Made by a program: the position numbers. A DNA stretch of 64,000 nt, from NCBI GenBank assembly GCA_034723395.1, contig JAYEOW010000029.1, positions 1 through 64,000 of the forward strand, given 5' to 3'. Position 1 is the first letter of the stretch; every line of letters begins with the position of its first letter. Source of the stretch: Candidatus Margulisiibacteriota bacterium. GTDB taxonomy: Bacteria; Margulisbacteria; WOR-1; O2-12-FULL-45-9. Positions 21,001 to 27,000 of the stretch are shown here, in pieces.

Positions 21001-24000
21001 TGTTTAGTTTTACGATTTCTGGATTTTTTTGGGTGCCGTTCGCTATGGTGACCGGCCGGCCGTTTTCCTGCCAAGCGGTCTTTCCGTCGTGGTAGATCCG
21101 CTGGGCATAGATATCGCTTTTTTCCGCGCGGTGGTCGGTCCAGATAACGATCGCTCCCCCGGCGCCATCCTTTGACAATCTCGGGTTCTCCTGCGCGAAG
21201 GGGAGTTTGCAGGCGGCTATACCATCTTTATTCCAGAGCAATTTTCCTTTGAGATCGATCTTTTGAAGGTAGATATCAAAGTTCCCGGAGCGGGCGTCAT
21301 TCCAGGCGAGAATAGCCCCATTTTCTGCCGACATAATAACCGGACGCTCTTGGTTCCCGGGAGAAAGGGAGACCGCTTTTCCCTCTTTTTCCCAAAGCAG
21401 GTTGCCCAAGGCGTCGATCCTCTGCGCGTAAATATTATTGTCCGAAGCGCTGGTCCTTCCGTCGGTCCAGACGATGATCGCGCCGCCGGACCCATCACCG
21501 GTTATCTTGGGATACCACTGAGTTCCGCTGCTGATCGATACCGCGACCCCGTCTTTTTGCCACAACGGGTTTCCCTTGCTATCAATCCTCTGCGCGAAGA
21601 TGTCTTCACCTTTCCTTCCGCGGTAATCGTGCCAAGTAATGATCGCACCGCCGTGCCCGTCGGAGGTGATCTCCGGAGCGAACTGTCCAGCCGCCGCCTG
21701 GCAGATCGGGATCCCGTCCCTTCCCCAAAGCGGGGAGCCGTTGCTGCTTATTTTCTGGGCAAAGATGTCGGAATTCCCATTGCGGTAGTCTTGCCACACG
21801 ACGACCACCCCGTTTAACCCATCGGTAATCAATTGCGGGAAGTTTTGATTGCCCGCAGATTTTCCGGCGGCAATTCCGTGTTTAGCCCAAAGCGGAACAC
21901 CAGCCCGGTCGATCTTCTGAAGGTAAACGTTATAGTAACCGGACCGTCCATCTTCCCAGGCGAGAAAGTAGCCGTTACTCCCGTTACTGATTATTTTTGG
22001 GTTTTGCTGCGGGCTATTCCCCGGGGTATCGTTAACGATGAGCCCATAAGTTGACCAGGCCGCTTTGGGGGTTTCCTGTGCGTAGGTTGGCGGGACCAAA
22101 AGGAGGCAGCATATTAAAATTGATAAAAATCTCATTAAGCAGCCTCGGCGAGCTTCATTGAAATCACTTTCGATACTCCTGGTTCCTCCATGGTAATTCC
22201 ATAGATGTTATTTGCAACCGCCATGGTGCGTTTGTTATGGGTGATCATAATGATCTGGCTCTGTGCGGAAAAATCTCTGACGATATCGGCAAAGCGCCCG
22301 ATATTCGCGTCATCCAGTGCCGCATCGACTTCATCTAAAAAGCAGAAAGGACTGGGACGGATCTTAAGCAGCGAGAAAAGTACCGCGATTGCCGATAAAG
22401 CCCTTTCTCCTCCGGACAAAATATGCAGCGGGAGCCATTTTCGGCCAGAAGGCTTGACCGAGATCTCGATATCAGACTCAAGCGCGGATGTTCCCGGCGA
22501 CAGCGTGATTTTTGCTTCTCCTCCGACAAAAAGTTTGGCAAAGGTTTCTGAAAATACTCCGGAAAGTTTTTCCATTGTTTCCAGGAAGGTCTGTTCGGCT
22601 TTGATGTCAAGCTCAATGATCAAGCTGCGCAGGTTATCGCGCGCTGAGTTCAGGTCGGTAAGCTGAGTTTCGATGAAATTTAGCCGTTCTCTTTCTTTTT
22701 CAAATTCTTCAATGGCTAAAAGGTTGACTGGTTCAAGCGCGCGCAGTTTCTGTTTTCCCGATTCGACCTCACTTTTGGTTTTAGATATGTTTGTCGCTTT
22801 TTGGGGGAGGGTGGCGGCTTCTTCCAGGCTAAGGTTATATTCGAGGGATAGCTTTTCCCGGATGCCATTTAGTTCGCCCTCAAGTTTCGCTAGAGAGATC
22901 GCGAGTGCGTTCTCTTCGTCTATGCTCTTTCTCTCGGATTGGCTGTCTTCCCGGATCTTTTCTTCTAGAACAGCGATCTTTTGCGAAAGACCTTCCTTTA
23001 CCTGTTTTTTCTGGACCAGCATCGATGGGGTGGTTTGGACGGCCTTTGCGTCGCCAATCTTTGAATTTAAGTTTTCCAGTTGTGTCCGGTGGGCCTGAAG
23101 GGCAAAACAGACCCGTTCTTTTTCTTTTTCGTTCCTTTTTTTCTCTTCCTCGAACATTTCGAGCCGCATTTTATAAGCCTCTTCTTTTTCGGCGTTATCT
23201 CCAAGATCGAGGGAGAAAGGTTTTGCTTTGCCGAAAAAGGAGAAGATAGAAGAGAGTTTGCTTACCAGGTTCGAGGCCTGATCTAAAACGGTTTCCAAAG
23301 ACGATGATAGGGGGGTTGAAGAAAGATCGAGCTTTTTCATCCCCTCTTTCAGCTTTACCCGGGCAAGTTCGACCTTCTCTTTTATCTCCCTGGATTTTTC
23401 TTCAAGTTCGGACAGTATTCGCTCCTCGCGTTTTACTTCACCATCGGTAAAGCGGCAATCGAGCTCAATATCGCGTACTTTATCCTTATCTTCTTCGAGT
23501 TTGATCAGGATATCGTCGATCTCGATTTCTAATTTGCGGTGTTCATCTTTTAAAACCTTTAGTTCTTCAAAATCTTTTTCTTCGGCCTGTTTCTTTGTCT
23601 GTGACTGCTGTTTTACCCGGTCGAGCTCGGACATTAGCCGGTCTTTCTTCTCATTTATATTTTCGATCATCCGATTGCACAGTCCGATGTCCAGATCTTT
23701 GATCTGGGATTGGATCTCAAGATATTCGCGCGCTTTGCGGGCCTGCTCTTCCAGGGTGATGATGTGTTCACCGACTTCTATCTTTAGGTCATTAATGCGC
23801 AGGATATTCTGTTCGGCGGCGATCAGCTTTTTCTCCGCCGAATATTTTCTGAACTTATACTTGTTGATCCCTGCCGCCTCTTCGAAGACTGCCCGGCGTT
23901 CCCCCCCCTTGCTGGAGAGGATCGCGTCTACCTGGCCCTGGGTGATGATCGAATAGGTCCCTTCCCCTAATCCGGTATCAAGCAGCAGGTCGCGGATATC

Positions 24001-27000
24001 TTTTAAACGGCACTGGTTTTTATTAATAAAAAATTCGCTCTCGCCCTCACGGAAAGTGCGGCGCTTGATGGCGACCTCTTCAAAAGCGAGAGGCAGTTTT
24101 CCGGAGGAGTTATCAAAAACTAAGGTGACTTCGGCCAGGGAGAGGGCTCTTTTAGCGGTGGTTCCGGTAAAGATAATATCGGCTAAGCTGGCGACCCTTA
24201 GATCGCGCGGATTATTTTCTCCCAATACCCAGCGGGTAGCGTCCAAAAGATTGCTTTTCCCGCATCCATTAGGCCCGACGATCGCGGTAATGCGCGCATT
24301 TTCGGTAAATTCGACCTCGACTGGATCGGCAAAGGTCTTAAAACCCCGCAAGATAAGAGATTTTAAAAACATCTTATAATGTAATATAGCAAAAAAAAGC
24401 CTATTCATCAACTAAGCTATTTGCAACTTGAAGCCGGTGTGTTAAAATGATCGAAAAATGAGAAGAAATTTTACTCTTTTACTCCTAATTCTTTTATTTG
24501 CCTCAACAGTTGTTGCAGGGATATTTATTTATGAACCAAAGGACAAGCTTATTACTTTTAATGAAGTAGAAATGCTTAAAGGCGTCGGTAAAAACCTGGA
24601 TATACTAAAAATTAACGATCAGAAGATAGGATTTAGTGCCAACGGTAATTTTAGCTGCGGACTGATCCTTTCGCGCGGAAAGAATCTGGTTGAGATAAGA
24701 GCGCTGGATAAAAATGGAGAGCATTTCACAAAAGAGGTGCGTATCCTAAGCTTAAAAAATTATCCGGACATCGAAACCCTTTACGACGGGAAAAAACATT
24801 GGGCCAGGACACAGATCATTTACCTTTCGACCATCGGCGTGATCGAAGGGTATCCCGATGGTGGTTTTTACCCGGGGAATCCGATCACCCGCGGAGAGTT
24901 GGCGACCTGGATCGCGCGGGCGAAGAAGTTGAGCGTAGCAAAGCTTGGCGGAGATCCGTTTTTTGATGTTCCAAAAGAGCGTTGGCGAGCACCATATATC
25001 AAGGCGGTGGTGGATGCCGGCTTTATGCGCGGCTATGATAATGACACATTTGGGATTGATGAGCCAATATCCAGGCGTCAGGTGGCCGAAGTCGCCGTTT
25101 TAACCGAGGGGTATGAGGCGGTTGAGCGGATAAAACCGATCTTTGTCGACGTTCCCAAAGAAGAACAGGGCGCATTCCCAATCTATGTTGCGCGGGAAAA
25201 AGGTTTGGTATTGGGAGTATCAAAAGATATCGACGTTTTTGAGCCGGACCGGGCGTTGACCCGGGCGGAAGCGGCCGCGCTGATTTCGAGATTTAAGATC
25301 TCTGCTGAACGGATAAAATATCTATTTAGCTTTGAAAAAGGTTTTGATAATGGCCGGCGCTGCAAAGTAAATCTTCCGCCAAAAATATTATCATTTTCGG
25401 TCGGGCCGGGTGAACTTAAAGCAAATAAACAAAACGTTGTAAAAGTCAGGGTTAAGATTGCCGATCGCGAAAATTTCTTCCCGATATCCAAGGTAAAGGT
25501 CGATCTTTCCGAAATTGGCGGGGCGCCGGACGCAGAGATGTTCGATAATGCTTCGCATGGGGACGAGAAGAAGGGGGATATGGTCTACTCCCTAAATCTT
25601 TCCCTCGAGCCGATAGAGAGCGGCAGTAAAAGCCTAATGGTTACAGCAATCGATCGGTTGGGATGGGAGAGCAGAAAAGAGGCATTCCTGCTCGTAATAG
25701 AATAATTTAATGAAAAAGTTTTTAATATTATTAATAGGCTTATCGGTTATCGTATCTCCGTCTTTTGCGGAATTAAAAGAGCTTGGAATTAATCCGCTGC
25801 GCTTAGAATTGGGGAGCAGACCGTTGGGGATGGGTGGGGCATTTACCGCGATCAGCGACGTGAACTCGGTGCTTTATAACCCGGGCGGCCTGGCTTGGGC
25901 AAAGGGAGTTTCGCTAACTTATCAGGACCCGCAGAATCTCTCATTTTTACAGGCTTACCCCAATGGGGAGGGATCGTCTGCCGGCTTGGCTATCCTAAAG
26001 AAAACTTACTCCGGGATCCCTTTCCAAATAGGGGAGGCAAATTCAGGGAGCACGATCGTCTTACTATCTTATGGGACAAAACTAAACGCAATCCCGCGGC
26101 TCTACAAAAATCCTTTCTTTAAAAGATTCGGCATTGGCATAACGTTAAAAGGGCTGGTAGGGCAGACCCTAAGGCGGACGGGGTATTTTGACCGTTCGGC
26201 GACTGGATGGGATATCGATCTTGGCGTGATCTGGAAGGGTGGAGAGTGGTGGTCGGCCGGGGCAGCTCTGCATAATATATTACCGATAAATACTTTGGGC
26301 GGCGGAGCGGTGATCTGGGATGTGGGAGGGGAAGAGGGGATCCCGGCCTCTTTTAGATTTGGCAGTTCAGCAAAAATTATCGGTGACCTTGATGCTCCGA
26401 TCTTTATGGAGGATCGAGAACTTATACTAAGCGGAGAGATCGATTTTTCGCGCATTAGAACGAGTCAGCTTAAATTAGGGGGAGAATGGTATTTCCAAAA
26501 ACGGTTCTATCTCCGCAGCGGGATTGTAGCCGGGGATGAAACCGATATTAACCTGGGAGCCGGTTTTAGGCGGGAAGATTGGGGGATTGACCTGGCATAT
26601 TATCGGGAGCCGATTAAGAACGAAAGATACATCTCGGCCTCGCTCTCCTATTATCCAAAGGAGTGGGTGGTCCTTAAAAAATTAGATATCGCAAAACCAA
26701 CCGTCATGCTTGAAAGGCCGATCGAAGAGCTTTCTTTAGAAGACAACATTGTAACTTATGATGACCGGATCGAAATTAACGGCCGCGTAAAACCGGGGGT
26801 AAAAGTTTACATCAATGGGCTCCCCGCATCACTAGACAAGAATAACGCGTTTAAAGTCGTGGTTCCCCTCCGATTAAAGAAAAATTTAATTATTGTTGAG
26901 GCGCGCTACGAAGGGGAGAGGAAGGTCTGGAAATATAAAGTTTTTAGAAAAGCTAAGATAAAGGTGTTGGAAGAAGAGCAATTAAAGAAAAAATTAAAAG

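What a model noticed while it worked through the whole genome (the two positions that open the first line are those of the whole stretch)
22135..24408. Condensin Smc without a hinge domain and with half-length arms, kept with ScpA and ScpB
The only SMC-family protein (g00853, 745-757 aa) has both Smc ATPase head halves but no hinge: two ~175-residue arm helices are joined by a ~50-residue helical apex. ScpA and ScpB (C11:16032-17325) are kept, so this is the cell's condensin, with arms about half as long as in Bacillus Smc. Relatives of the order have the same short form, and across class WOR-1 the protein shrinks in steps (about 1190-1220 aa with hinge, then ~1005, ~910, ~750-800 aa without).
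Evidence so far: pfam.tsv: SMC_N 14-746 as one hit, no SMC_hinge, no other SMC_N/RecN gene. Swiss-Prot best hit B. subtilis Smc, query 13-755 on subject 1-1180. Six-frame SMC_hinge PF06470: 0/31 genomes of the order, 1/65 of the class, 15/146 of the phylum, all in ORFs of 988-1224 aa; control rings in 10/14. tblastn of g00853: full-length matches in ORFs of 744-803 aa in 26 of 30 relatives of the order (one in a 963-aa frame, two cut by contig ends, one without match); 717-819, 852-915, 995-1086 aa in other WOR-1 families. AlphaFold2 with 24 orthologues (pLDDT 77): helices 170-344 and 394-614 fold back, apex 345-393 holds one short helix. relatives.tsv: ScpA >=25/30, ScpB >=26/30.
(Added by a program. 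Inside this text positions count along the whole contig: contig position 1 is position 1 of the stretch shown here. "Call 12" and the like, gene names such as g00115 and contig names such as C1 are that model's own, and its searches are not shown. The text may have been shortened before it was handed on; [...] marks where a part breaks off. The agent that wrote the report below was given it as the finding of a first reader that could run no searches.)

Follow-up and report, generated by a model that had tools for sequence, protein, structure and literature searches.

The report
Hinge-less, short-armed Smc condensin
This bacterium's only chromosome-folding Smc protein has lost the central hinge that normally joins two Smc molecules, along with half of each arm, yet it is strongly conserved and keeps its partner proteins, so it is a natural test of what the hinge is for.

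Summary
Window 22135-24372 (-) encodes a 745-aa Smc that scores above the NCBIfam TIGR02168 cut-off. Both ATPase head halves and the joint are intact. No hinge is detectable by Pfam, by a phylum-specific hinge profile or by hhalign. The arms are about 175 residues and are joined by a 49-residue apex. The gene is real and constrained: 28 of 31 genomes of the order carry it full-length at 733-747 aa, one of them a single-contig genome, and dN/dS is 0.01-0.2. ScpA, ScpB and ParB are kept. Across the phylum ScpB is present where Smc is present and absent from the families that lack Smc.

The ~1000-aa form of one sister family keeps a mini-hinge (both ends of the hinge, centre deleted). The series is also not a simple shrinkage: the hinge-bearing protein is nested among hinge-negative ones (AU p 0.004), and the 1070-1077-aa forms grew by duplicating an arm block.

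The apex holds a 24-residue helix with an invariantly hydrophobic a/d/e face. I read this as a new minimal dimerisation element, but that is inference: the complex prediction never ran.

Hinge-less SMCs were published in 2025, and this scan has met them in other lineages, so this is a variant of a known kind with an unusually informative evolutionary series.

The parts
22135..24372 (-). smc coding sequence, 745 aa plus stop (the ORF list gives a 758-aa frame from a TTG at 24411)
   Evidence: the conserved start M-F-L-K is shared by 59 class orthologues
23866..24372 (-). N-terminal head half (residues 1-169), with Walker A G-P-N-G-C-G-K-S at 33-40 and the Q-loop Q145
   Evidence: invariant columns in 40 sequences; matches to B. 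subtilis Smc head structures 5xg3/3zgx at E 4e-120
23341..23865 (-). N-terminal arm helix (residues 170-344, 175 aa)
   Evidence: AlphaFold2 helix 170-344
23449..23487 (-). Conserved arm motif K296..R300-D301..R307-F308. It probably corresponds to the hinge-proximal arm motif of full-length Smc (about residues 400-443 there)
   Evidence: R300, D301 and F308 are invariant in 40 sequences; MAFFT alignment; a motif profile from 9 hinge-bearing proteins hits in register at 295-337 in 22 of 28 order proteins, but weakly (window protein E 1.5)
23194..23340 (-). Apex (residues 345-393): loop, helix, loop. This replaces the hinge
   Evidence: pLDDT 47-68; no similarity to the hinge; no Cys-x-x-Cys
23236..23307 (-). 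Apex helix (residues 356-379) with a conserved hydrophobic a/d/e face at 359, 362, 363, 366, 369, 370, 373, 376, 377 and 380
   Evidence: 9 of the 10 positions are 88-100% hydrophobic in 40 sequences (position 366 is 50%), while identity is only 27%; 8 conserved bulky hydrophobic positions per 21 residues against 2-4 in the outer arms
22837..23193 (-). C-terminal arm helices (residues 394-512)
   Evidence: AlphaFold2 helices 394-444 and 448-512
22531..22836 (-). Joint and neck (residues 513-614): broken helices 516-521 and 529-546, then helix 552-614 leading into the head
   Evidence: matches to head-plus-joint structures 5xei and 5xg3
22138..22530 (-). C-terminal head half (residues 615-745), with signature L-S-G-G-E at 652-656, Walker B ending D680-E681, and H712
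   Evidence: invariant columns

Best explanation
**What it is.** This is the organism's only Smc and the ATPase of a working Smc-ScpAB complex. It descends from a canonical ~1180-aa Smc. The hinge and about half of each arm were removed. What remains is a 745-aa protein with a normal head, neck and joint, arms of about 175 residues (about 26 nm against 49 nm in B. subtilis), and a 49-residue apex.

**Shown.**
- Orthology to Smc.
- Absence of a detectable hinge.
- Purifying selection on heads, arms and apex.
- Arm length fixed within clades.
- Co-retention of ScpA, ScpB and ParB.

**Inferred.**
- Two subunits still pair. They would do so through the apex helix, whose broad, invariantly hydrophobic a/d/e face needs a partner surface, together with co-aligned arms and the ScpA bridge at the heads.
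- This gives a half-size rod or ring that loads at ParB/parS and translocates on a 1.7-Mb chromosome.
- The canonical hinge is therefore dispensable here. It was replaced by a much smaller dimerising cap, much as the engineered B. subtilis Smc works with a Rad50 zinc hook in place of its hinge.
For: - **Family and motifs.** TIGR02168 scores 710 bits against a cut-off of 567, and all head motifs are invariant.
- **Structural matches.** The best PDB matches are B. subtilis and Pyrococcus Smc head-plus-joint structures.
- **Descent.** The Smc tree roots the class on hinge-bearing outgroups, and the window protein lies in a clade with 100% support. The same downstream gene follows smc in 46 of 58 other class loci, including the hinge-bearing one.
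- **Conservation in the order.** 28 of 31 genomes carry the 733-747-aa form. One of these genomes is a single contig and two have 5 contigs.
- **Fixed length.** The inter-head segment is 377-378 residues in 14 of 14 f1 proteins.
- **Selection.** In 5 close pairs of the sister family f2, dN/dS is 0.01-0.06 in the heads, 0.05-0.20 in the arms and 0.08-0.17 in the apex.
- **Partners.** scpAB form an operon and ParB is present. ScpA is found in 61 of 65 class genomes, and in 37 of 37 high-quality ones. ScpB is found in 60 of 65. ScpB was found in none of the phylum families f16-f30, which lack a full Smc.
- **Apex helix.** It has an a/d/e hydrophobic pattern, with 8 conserved bulky positions per 21 residues.
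- **Precedent.** A functional Smc chimera carrying the Rad50 zinc hook, and functional Mini-Smc proteins, are reported in PMC5344682 (passages and figure legends read).
Against: - No dimer prediction or experiment supports apex pairing. The complex job was never accepted.
- The apex is the least confident part of the model (pLDDT 47-68). It is also the least conserved in sequence (19-32% pairwise identity).
- One f2 pair gives an apex dN/dS of 0.59.
- The hydrophobic face could equally be buried in a monomeric three-helix cap on the subunit's own arm tips.
- dN/dS could only be measured in family f2, not in the window's own family, because synonymous sites there are saturated.
- Most of the phylum has lost Smc-ScpAB altogether. 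The function is therefore clearly dispensable in related lineages.
- No RNA data were found.
Confidence: 0.6

Rival explanations
1. The gene is a functional Smc-ScpAB, but the apex does not dimerise. The apex helix only caps the hairpin of its own subunit. Two subunits are held together solely by ATP-dependent head engagement and by the ScpA bridge (neck of one head, cap of the other). The complex would then be an open-ended clamp with free arms and no closed Smc compartment.
For: The apex is short, poorly conserved in sequence and modelled with low confidence. An a/d/e pattern also fits a monomeric three-helix cap. ScpA is retained with a full-length Pfam match, positions 3-229 of 232.
Against: The outer arm segments that the helix would pack on carry only 4 conserved bulky hydrophobic positions per 21 residues, which is little to bury an 8-position face. 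Arm length is held to within a residue inside clades. That is expected if two arms must match each other or a fixed geometry, and less so for free arms.
Confidence: 0.27
2. The apex is a hinge that has diverged beyond recognition, not a replacement for it.
For: A sister family shows that the hinge can be whittled down: a mini-hinge keeps both ends of the domain. The segment after the apex helix has an alternating hydrophobic pattern at 386 and 388, which is strand-like.
Against: The phylum hinge profile gives E 1.1, and that match is in the head. hhalign of the apex gives 0.2% against the hinge and 0.2% against the f3 mini-hinge. The conserved glycine motif (G..TGGS) is absent. The predicted secondary structure is one helix and no sheet.
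Confidence: 0.06
3. The gene is a decaying relic on its way to loss, as in the many Smc-less genomes of the phylum, or it has been turned to a function unrelated to condensin.
For: About 65 of 81 phylum genomes outside the class have no Smc, and 68 of 81 have no ScpB.
Against: dN/dS is at most 0.2 in all regions of nearly all pairs. ATPase motifs are invariant in 40 sequences. The frame is intact in 28 order genomes and 59 class genomes. Lengths are fixed. ScpAB are retained.
Confidence: 0.05
4. The short gene is an assembly or gene-calling artefact: an internal deletion produced by mis-assembly of a metagenome bin.
For: The genome is a 55-contig draft.
Against: The same architecture is found in 28 genomes of 25 genera, one of them a single-contig genome. 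It also appears in 25 further database proteins of 745-758 aa from several sources.
Confidence: 0.01

Closest known systems
Bacterial Smc of Smc-ScpAB (B. subtilis type; NCBIfam TIGR02168; PDB 5xg3, 3zgx, 5xei)
   Same: It is the orthologue by profile score, tree and synteny. The head, neck and joint are the same, as are the partners ScpA and ScpB and the presence of ParB.
   Different: It has no hinge domain. The arms are about 175 residues instead of about 340. A 49-residue apex of loop, helix and loop sits where the hinge would be.
Engineered Mini-Smc and the Smc(Zh) chimera of B. subtilis (PMC5344682; passages, section 8 and figure legends read)
   Same: These are shortened arms that still work at certain lengths, and a hinge replaced by a small foreign dimerisation element. 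They work like what is proposed here.
   Different: Those are laboratory constructs that keep a hinge or a zinc hook. This is a natural protein with neither, and its apex has no cysteine pair.
Oceanic 'hinge-less SMC' cluster (Environ Microbiome 2025, PMC12153180; section 15 and discussion passages read)
   Same: [quoted passage not shown]
   Different: That cluster is described as affiliated with Actinobacteria. In the passages I read, no kleisin or kite partners are analysed. Here the loss arose inside the WOR-1 class from hinge-bearing ancestors, so the origin is independent, and intermediates are preserved. I had no sequences of that cluster to compare.
Rad50/SbcC and RecN (SMC-like ATPases without a hinge)
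   Same: The architecture is head, coiled coil and a small apex.
   Different: There is no zinc-hook motif. Rad50 models score 51.6 bits against cut-offs of 700 or more. No RecN model appears among the 25 best NCBIfam hits. The partners here are ScpA and ScpB, not Mre11/SbcD.

Membership tests
Bacterial Smc (TIGR02168, Smc-ScpAB) | Whole-protein score above the curated equivalog cut-off | tested here: met
   710.3 bits against 567.35
Bacterial Smc (TIGR02168, Smc-ScpAB) | ABC-type head with Walker A, Q-loop, signature motif, Walker B and H-loop | tested here: met
   G33-S40, Q145, S653-E656, D680-D683 and H712 are invariant in 40 sequences; B. subtilis head structures match at E 4e-120
Bacterial Smc (TIGR02168, Smc-ScpAB) | Central hinge dimerisation domain (Pfam PF06470) | tested here: not met
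   No hit at E<=0.01 in the protein or at E<=1 in the genome; phylum hinge profile E 1.1; hhalign 0.2%
Bacterial Smc (TIGR02168, Smc-ScpAB) | Long antiparallel coiled-coil arms (about 340 residues, 49 nm in B. subtilis) | tested here: not met
   The arms are antiparallel but only about 175 residues long; TIGR02168 positions 351-829 are missing
Bacterial Smc (TIGR02168, Smc-ScpAB) | Head-proximal joint | tested here: met
   Broken helices at 513-551; matches to head-plus-joint structures 5xei and 5xg3
Bacterial Smc (TIGR02168, Smc-ScpAB) | Kleisin ScpA and kite ScpB encoded in the genome | tested here: met
   scpA scores 79 bits and scpB 159 bits; they are adjacent and overlap on contig C11. 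Binding was not tested
Bacterial Smc (TIGR02168, Smc-ScpAB) | Descent from the Smc of related genomes (orthology) | tested here: met
   Tree rooted on 8 hinge-bearing proteins; shared downstream gene in 46 of 58 loci
Bacterial Smc (TIGR02168, Smc-ScpAB) | Constitutive homodimer joined at the end far from the heads | not testable with these tools
   The complex prediction could not be run (queue full or no answer at every attempt)
Rad50/SbcC | Cys-x-x-Cys zinc hook at the apex | tested here: not met
   No Cys in 345-393 and no CxxC anywhere in the protein; the best Rad50 model scores 51.6 bits against a cut-off of 700
Hinge-less SMC (as described in PMC12153180) | SMC head and coiled coil with no hinge and no CXXC | tested here: met
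Hinge-less SMC (as described in PMC12153180) | Member of the same monophyletic oceanic cluster | not tested
   No sequences of that cluster were at hand. The tree here places the loss inside the WOR-1 class, which argues for an independent origin

The most novel reading that the evidence does not exclude
In one bacterial class the SMC hinge was taken apart at least twice. One lineage is caught half-way, with a mini-hinge made of the two ends of the domain. In the window's lineage the hinge is replaced by a single amphipathic helix that serves as a new, minimal SMC dimerisation element. The result is a natural 745-aa 'mini-condensin' that still extrudes or translocates on DNA with ScpAB. If so, neither the hinge fold, nor hinge-DNA contacts, nor a ~50-nm arm is needed for Smc-ScpAB action.
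Probability: 0.4. Interest if true: 0.75.

Novelty: new variant of a known kind. Interest (0 to 1): 0.6.

Why it matters
Models of how SMC complexes load and move DNA differ over what the hinge and the long arms do: DNA entry gate, DNA-binding site, or mechanical lever. Here the hinge is gone and the arms are halved, yet the heads, joint, kleisin, kite and ParB all remain under selection. That makes it a ready-made minimal system for biochemistry and cryo-EM, since 745 aa is far easier to handle than about 1190.

The class also preserves a series of forms: full hinge, mini-hinge, no hinge with arms of several fixed lengths, and arms lengthened by block duplication. This offers natural length and apex variants for testing the arm-length tuning rules found by mutagenesis in B. 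subtilis.

The finding is not a first. Hinge-less SMCs were reported in 2025, and this scan has met them in several other lineages. That suggests hinge loss is recurrent in bacteria with small genomes.

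Tried and rejected
- **Complex prediction.** I submitted two copies of residues 285-455 with alignment A1. 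The job was never accepted: the queue was full or the machine gave no usable answer at every attempt. There is therefore no result of any kind on apex pairing.
- **Protein Atlas look-up of residues 300-440.** It returned only generic helical hairpins and unnamed clusters, so no lead came of it.
- **Foldseek of the whole model against the PDB.** It returned only SMC-family heads and arms and said nothing about the apex.
- **Sequencing runs.** No RNA holder is listed. Only DNA holders were found, and one of them may be the source sample.
- **Self-BLAST for internal repeats at E<=1e-3.** It found none in the window protein.
- **Arm-length steps.** I looked for steps equal to the ~91-99-residue period of PMC5344682. 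The inter-head segments are 347-409, 476-478, 538, 605, ~630, ~703-710 and 815-819 residues. They do not fall on one clear period, and I make no such claim.
- **The downstream gene as a possible partner.** It overlaps smc by TAATG and is conserved next to smc. I rejected it because it has a signal peptide and about 58-residue propeller-like repeats, so it is an exported protein.
- **Which arm half was kept.** This is unresolved. The TIGR02168 alignment maps residues 2-352 onto profile positions 1-350. MAFFT and a motif profile place residues 295-337 on the hinge-proximal arm of full-length proteins, but with weak scores.
- **Literature.** I ran searches on 'hingeless'+SMC, 'hinge-less'+SMC, Smc/ScpA with hinge-loss phrases, Margulisbacteria+SMC, and Smc-ScpAB with terms for streamlined lineages. 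The only natural hinge-less SMC they found is in PMC12153180, and they found nothing on WOR-1 or Margulisbacteria Smc. Supplements of the papers were not opened.

Full report
**1. What is there**

The minus-strand ORF 22135..24411 gives 758 aa from a TTG. All relatives begin at a conserved M-F-L-K motif, which here is the ATG at 24372, so the protein is 745 aa.

- Pfam reports one SMC_N match that spans residues 2-734 (220 bits) and no SMC_hinge.
- NCBIfam TIGR02168 (chromosome segregation protein SMC, an equivalog model) scores 710.3 bits against a cut-off of 567.35, in two stretches.
- In the six-frame search these two stretches cover profile positions 1-350 and 830-1181.
- The best matches among solved structures are B. 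subtilis Smc head constructs 5xg3 and 3zgx (E 4e-120) and the Pyrococcus head-plus-joint structure 5xei. No hinge chain appears.
- Walker A, the Q-loop, the signature motif, Walker B and the H-loop are invariant across 40 aligned relatives.

**2. The hinge is really absent**

- PF06470 finds nothing in the whole 1.68-Mb genome (97% complete) at E<=1. The same search finds the hinge in 11 of 14 control genomes.
- A hinge profile built from 14 hinge-bearing Smc proteins of the same phylum scores the window protein at E 1.1, and that match lies in the head.
- hhalign of the aligned apex against the hinge alignment gives probability 0.2%.
- There is no Cys-x-x-Cys motif anywhere in the protein.

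AlphaFold2 with 40 relatives (pLDDT 77.8, pTM 0.51) predicts the following layout:

| Residues | Predicted element |
|---|---|
| 170-344 | helix (N-terminal arm) |
| 345-355 | loop |
| 356-379 | helix (apex helix) |
| 380-393 | loop |
| 394-444 and 448-512 | helices (C-terminal arm) |
| 513-551 | broken joint region |
| 552-614 | helix into the head |

At the usual coiled-coil rise of about 0.15 nm per residue (general knowledge), 175 residues make about 26 nm. The summary of PMC5526789 gives 49 nm for the B. subtilis arm.

**3. It is the only SMC, and its partners are kept**

- The other frames in the genome that score on SMC_N and were examined (six of them) are four ABC transporters, UvrA and an OLD-type nuclease.
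- scpA (255 aa) and scpB (181 aa) overlap by 20 nt on contig C11.
- A ParB gene is present.

**4. It is not an artefact and not decaying**

- In the order, 30 of 31 genomes match. 28 are full-length, 2 are cut by contig ends, and 1 genome (69% complete) has no match. One of the genomes is a single contig.
- From the conserved start the 28 proteins are 733-747 aa long.
- A search of the 5.8-billion-protein collection with residues 230-480 found 26 proteins. All are 745-758 aa except one 418-aa fragment, and none carries PF06470. Some are named by their sources as SMC family proteins of Candidatus Margulisiibacteriota or candidate division WOR-1 (only the 8000 candidates sharing most words were scored).
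- In the exhaustive search, 17 of the best 150 cluster representatives are under 1000 aa. The rest are about 1010-1290 aa.
- dN/dS was measured in five close pairs of the sister family f2, because pairs in the window's own family are saturated at synonymous sites. It is 0.01-0.06 in the heads, 0.05-0.20 in the arms and 0.08-0.17 in the apex, with one apex value of 0.59.
- The segment between the two head halves is 377-378 residues in 14 of 14 f1 proteins. The 905-aa form has exactly that length in 7 of 7 proteins from two families.

**5. The class and the phylum**

63 of 65 class genomes have an Smc. I analysed 59 full-length genes and dropped four that were split or cut by contig ends.

| Length from the conserved start | Number of proteins | Families |
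|---|---|---|
| 716-779 aa | 40 | f1, f2, f10-f13 |
| 844 and 855 aa | 2 | f6 |
| 905 aa | 7 | f7, f8 |
| 984-998 aa | 7 | f5, f3 |
| 1070 and 1077 aa | 2 | f7 |
| 1182 aa | 1 | f4 |

- Of 13 representatives scanned with Pfam at E<=1, only the 1182-aa protein has SMC_hinge (97 bits).
- In six frames the hinge is found in 15 of 146 phylum genomes: 1 in the class and 14 outside it.
- Outside the class, 14 genomes carry a hinge-bearing Smc and 2 carry fragments. About 65 have no Smc by either the protein query or TIGR02168.
- ScpB is found in 60 of 65 class genomes and in 13 of 81 outside the class. It is found in none of families f16-f30, which lack a full Smc; one f26 genome has only a 193-aa fragment.
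- ScpA is found in 61 of 65 class genomes, and in 37 of 37 high-quality ones.
- The partners therefore track Smc, whether or not Smc has a hinge.

**6. Corrections to the 'stepwise shrinkage' picture**

(a) The six f3 proteins (995-998 aa) are not hinge-free.
- The phylum hinge profile matches their residues ~503-545 to the last ~40 hinge positions, with E from 2e-6 to 1e-3.
- hhalign gives 94% probability, E 1e-7.
- The alignment shows that they keep about the first 35 and the last 25 hinge residues, including the glycine motif, with about 110 central residues deleted.
- AlphaFold2 puts a small strand-rich module there, but at low confidence, pLDDT 44-56.

(b) The hinge-bearing protein is nested among hinge-negative ones.
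- The Smc tree has 67 rows and 706 columns. It was built with LG+G4 and a quick search, and rooted on 8 hinge-bearing outgroup proteins.
- It places the hinge-bearing f4 protein as sister to f3 (SH-aLRT 99). That pair sits next to f7+f8 (support 91). The window's clade lies in a second branch (support 95).
- Forcing all 58 hinge-negative proteins into one clade is rejected (AU p 0.0038).
- Forcing the 52 proteins without f3 and f4 into one clade is not rejected (p 0.22).
- At least two independent reductions are therefore supported, and the best tree implies three.
- Both groups were defined after the tree had been seen, and this is a gene tree, not a species tree.

(c) The 1070/1077-aa forms differ from the 905-aa forms by matched blocks of about 97 residues on the N-arm and about 69 on the C-arm. 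In one of these proteins, N-arm residues ~299-373 repeat at ~403-482 (34% identity over 80 residues, E 1e-10 in a two-sequence comparison). Arms in this class therefore also grow by duplication.

**7. The apex**

- Sequence identity in the apex is low, 19-32% pairwise in the order.
- Helix positions 359, 362, 363, 369, 370, 373, 376, 377 and 380 are hydrophobic in 88-100% of 40 sequences (366 in 50%). This is an a/d/e pattern.
- With 8 conserved bulky hydrophobic positions in 21 residues, the helix is as hydrophobic as the neck that binds ScpA. The outer arms carry 2-4 per 21.
- A face this broad must be buried. I favour burial against the second subunit, but a monomeric three-helix cap is not excluded.
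- The one tool that could have weighed these alternatives never accepted the job.

**8. Which part of the arm was lost**

An arm motif (K296, R300, D301, R307, F308) is invariant or nearly so in the short forms. MAFFT aligns it with a motif that lies about 60-95 residues before the hinge in full-length proteins. A profile of that motif, built from 9 hinge-bearing proteins, finds its best hit in register at 295-337 in 22 of 28 order proteins. The scores are weak, and the window protein itself scores only E 1.5. This suggests that the middle of the arm was deleted and a hinge-proximal piece kept. The TIGR02168 alignment would instead keep the head-proximal half. I leave the point open.

**9. Comparison with what is known**

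- PMC5344682 (section 8, passages and figure legends read) reports prokaryotic arm-length modes at 238, 341 and 515 residues, with possible minor modes at 163 and 423. It also reports functional Mini-Smc proteins at certain lengths and a functional chimera with the Rad50 zinc hook in place of the hinge.
- PMC12153180 (section 15 and discussion passages read) describes an abundant oceanic 'hinge-less SMC' cluster without a CXXC motif.
- Earlier notes of this scan report hinge-less Smc proteins in other lineages.
- The existence of natural hinge-less SMCs is therefore not new.
- My searches did not find the following in print: the WOR-1 case, its retention of ScpAB and ParB, the preserved mini-hinge intermediate, and the repeated independent reduction within one class.

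**10. Verdict**

This is a real, conserved, hinge-less and short-armed Smc orthologue. It most likely still works with ScpAB. The proposed dimerising role of the apex helix remains untested.

Noticed in passing
L062 (genome G035) protein residues ~462-545; the same in L057, L058, L060, L064, L069: The 995-998-aa Smc of sister family f3 keeps a 'mini-hinge'. About the first 35 and the last 25 residues of the hinge remain, including the glycine motif, and about 110 central residues are deleted. Pfam misses it. A phylum-specific profile (E 2e-6 to 1e-3) and hhalign (94%) detect it.
   Followed up: yes
Phylum genomes G067-G134: About 65 of 81 phylum genomes outside the class have no Smc by either the protein query or TIGR02168, and 68 of 81 have no ScpB. 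I did not check whether they carry MukBEF- or MksBEF-type complexes instead.
   Followed up: partly
L066 (genome G046) Smc residues ~299-373 and ~403-482: There is a tandem duplication of an N-arm block (34% identity over 80 residues). The 1070/1077-aa forms exceed the 905-aa forms by matched blocks of about 97 residues on the N-arm and about 69 on the C-arm.
   Followed up: partly
window 19454-22135 (-): An 893-aa protein with a signal peptide and about 58-residue repeats, with no Pfam family above its cut-off. Its ATG overlaps the smc stop codon (TAATG). A homologue lies directly downstream of smc in 46 of 58 other class loci, including the hinge-bearing one, but in none of the 9 f7/f8 loci. 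The reason for this tight linkage is unknown.
   Followed up: partly
window 24458-27371 (+): Two S-layer-homology (SLH) domain proteins are transcribed divergently from smc. The first of them is conserved upstream of smc in 24 of 58 class loci.
   Followed up: partly
window 2830-6927 (-): A 1365-aa ORF with no Pfam family at E<=1e-5.
   Followed up: no
G081:C11:35932-36501 and G066:C140: G081 belongs to a family that otherwise lacks Smc, and it has only a 193-aa frame matching the Smc N-terminal head; this may be a relic. The hinge-bearing smc of G066 has an in-frame TAG.
   Followed up: no
L013 (G000 contig C50 18801-20534): A 577-aa OLD-family ATPase/TOPRIM nuclease, a candidate defence gene. 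It turned up only because it scores on SMC_N.
   Followed up: no
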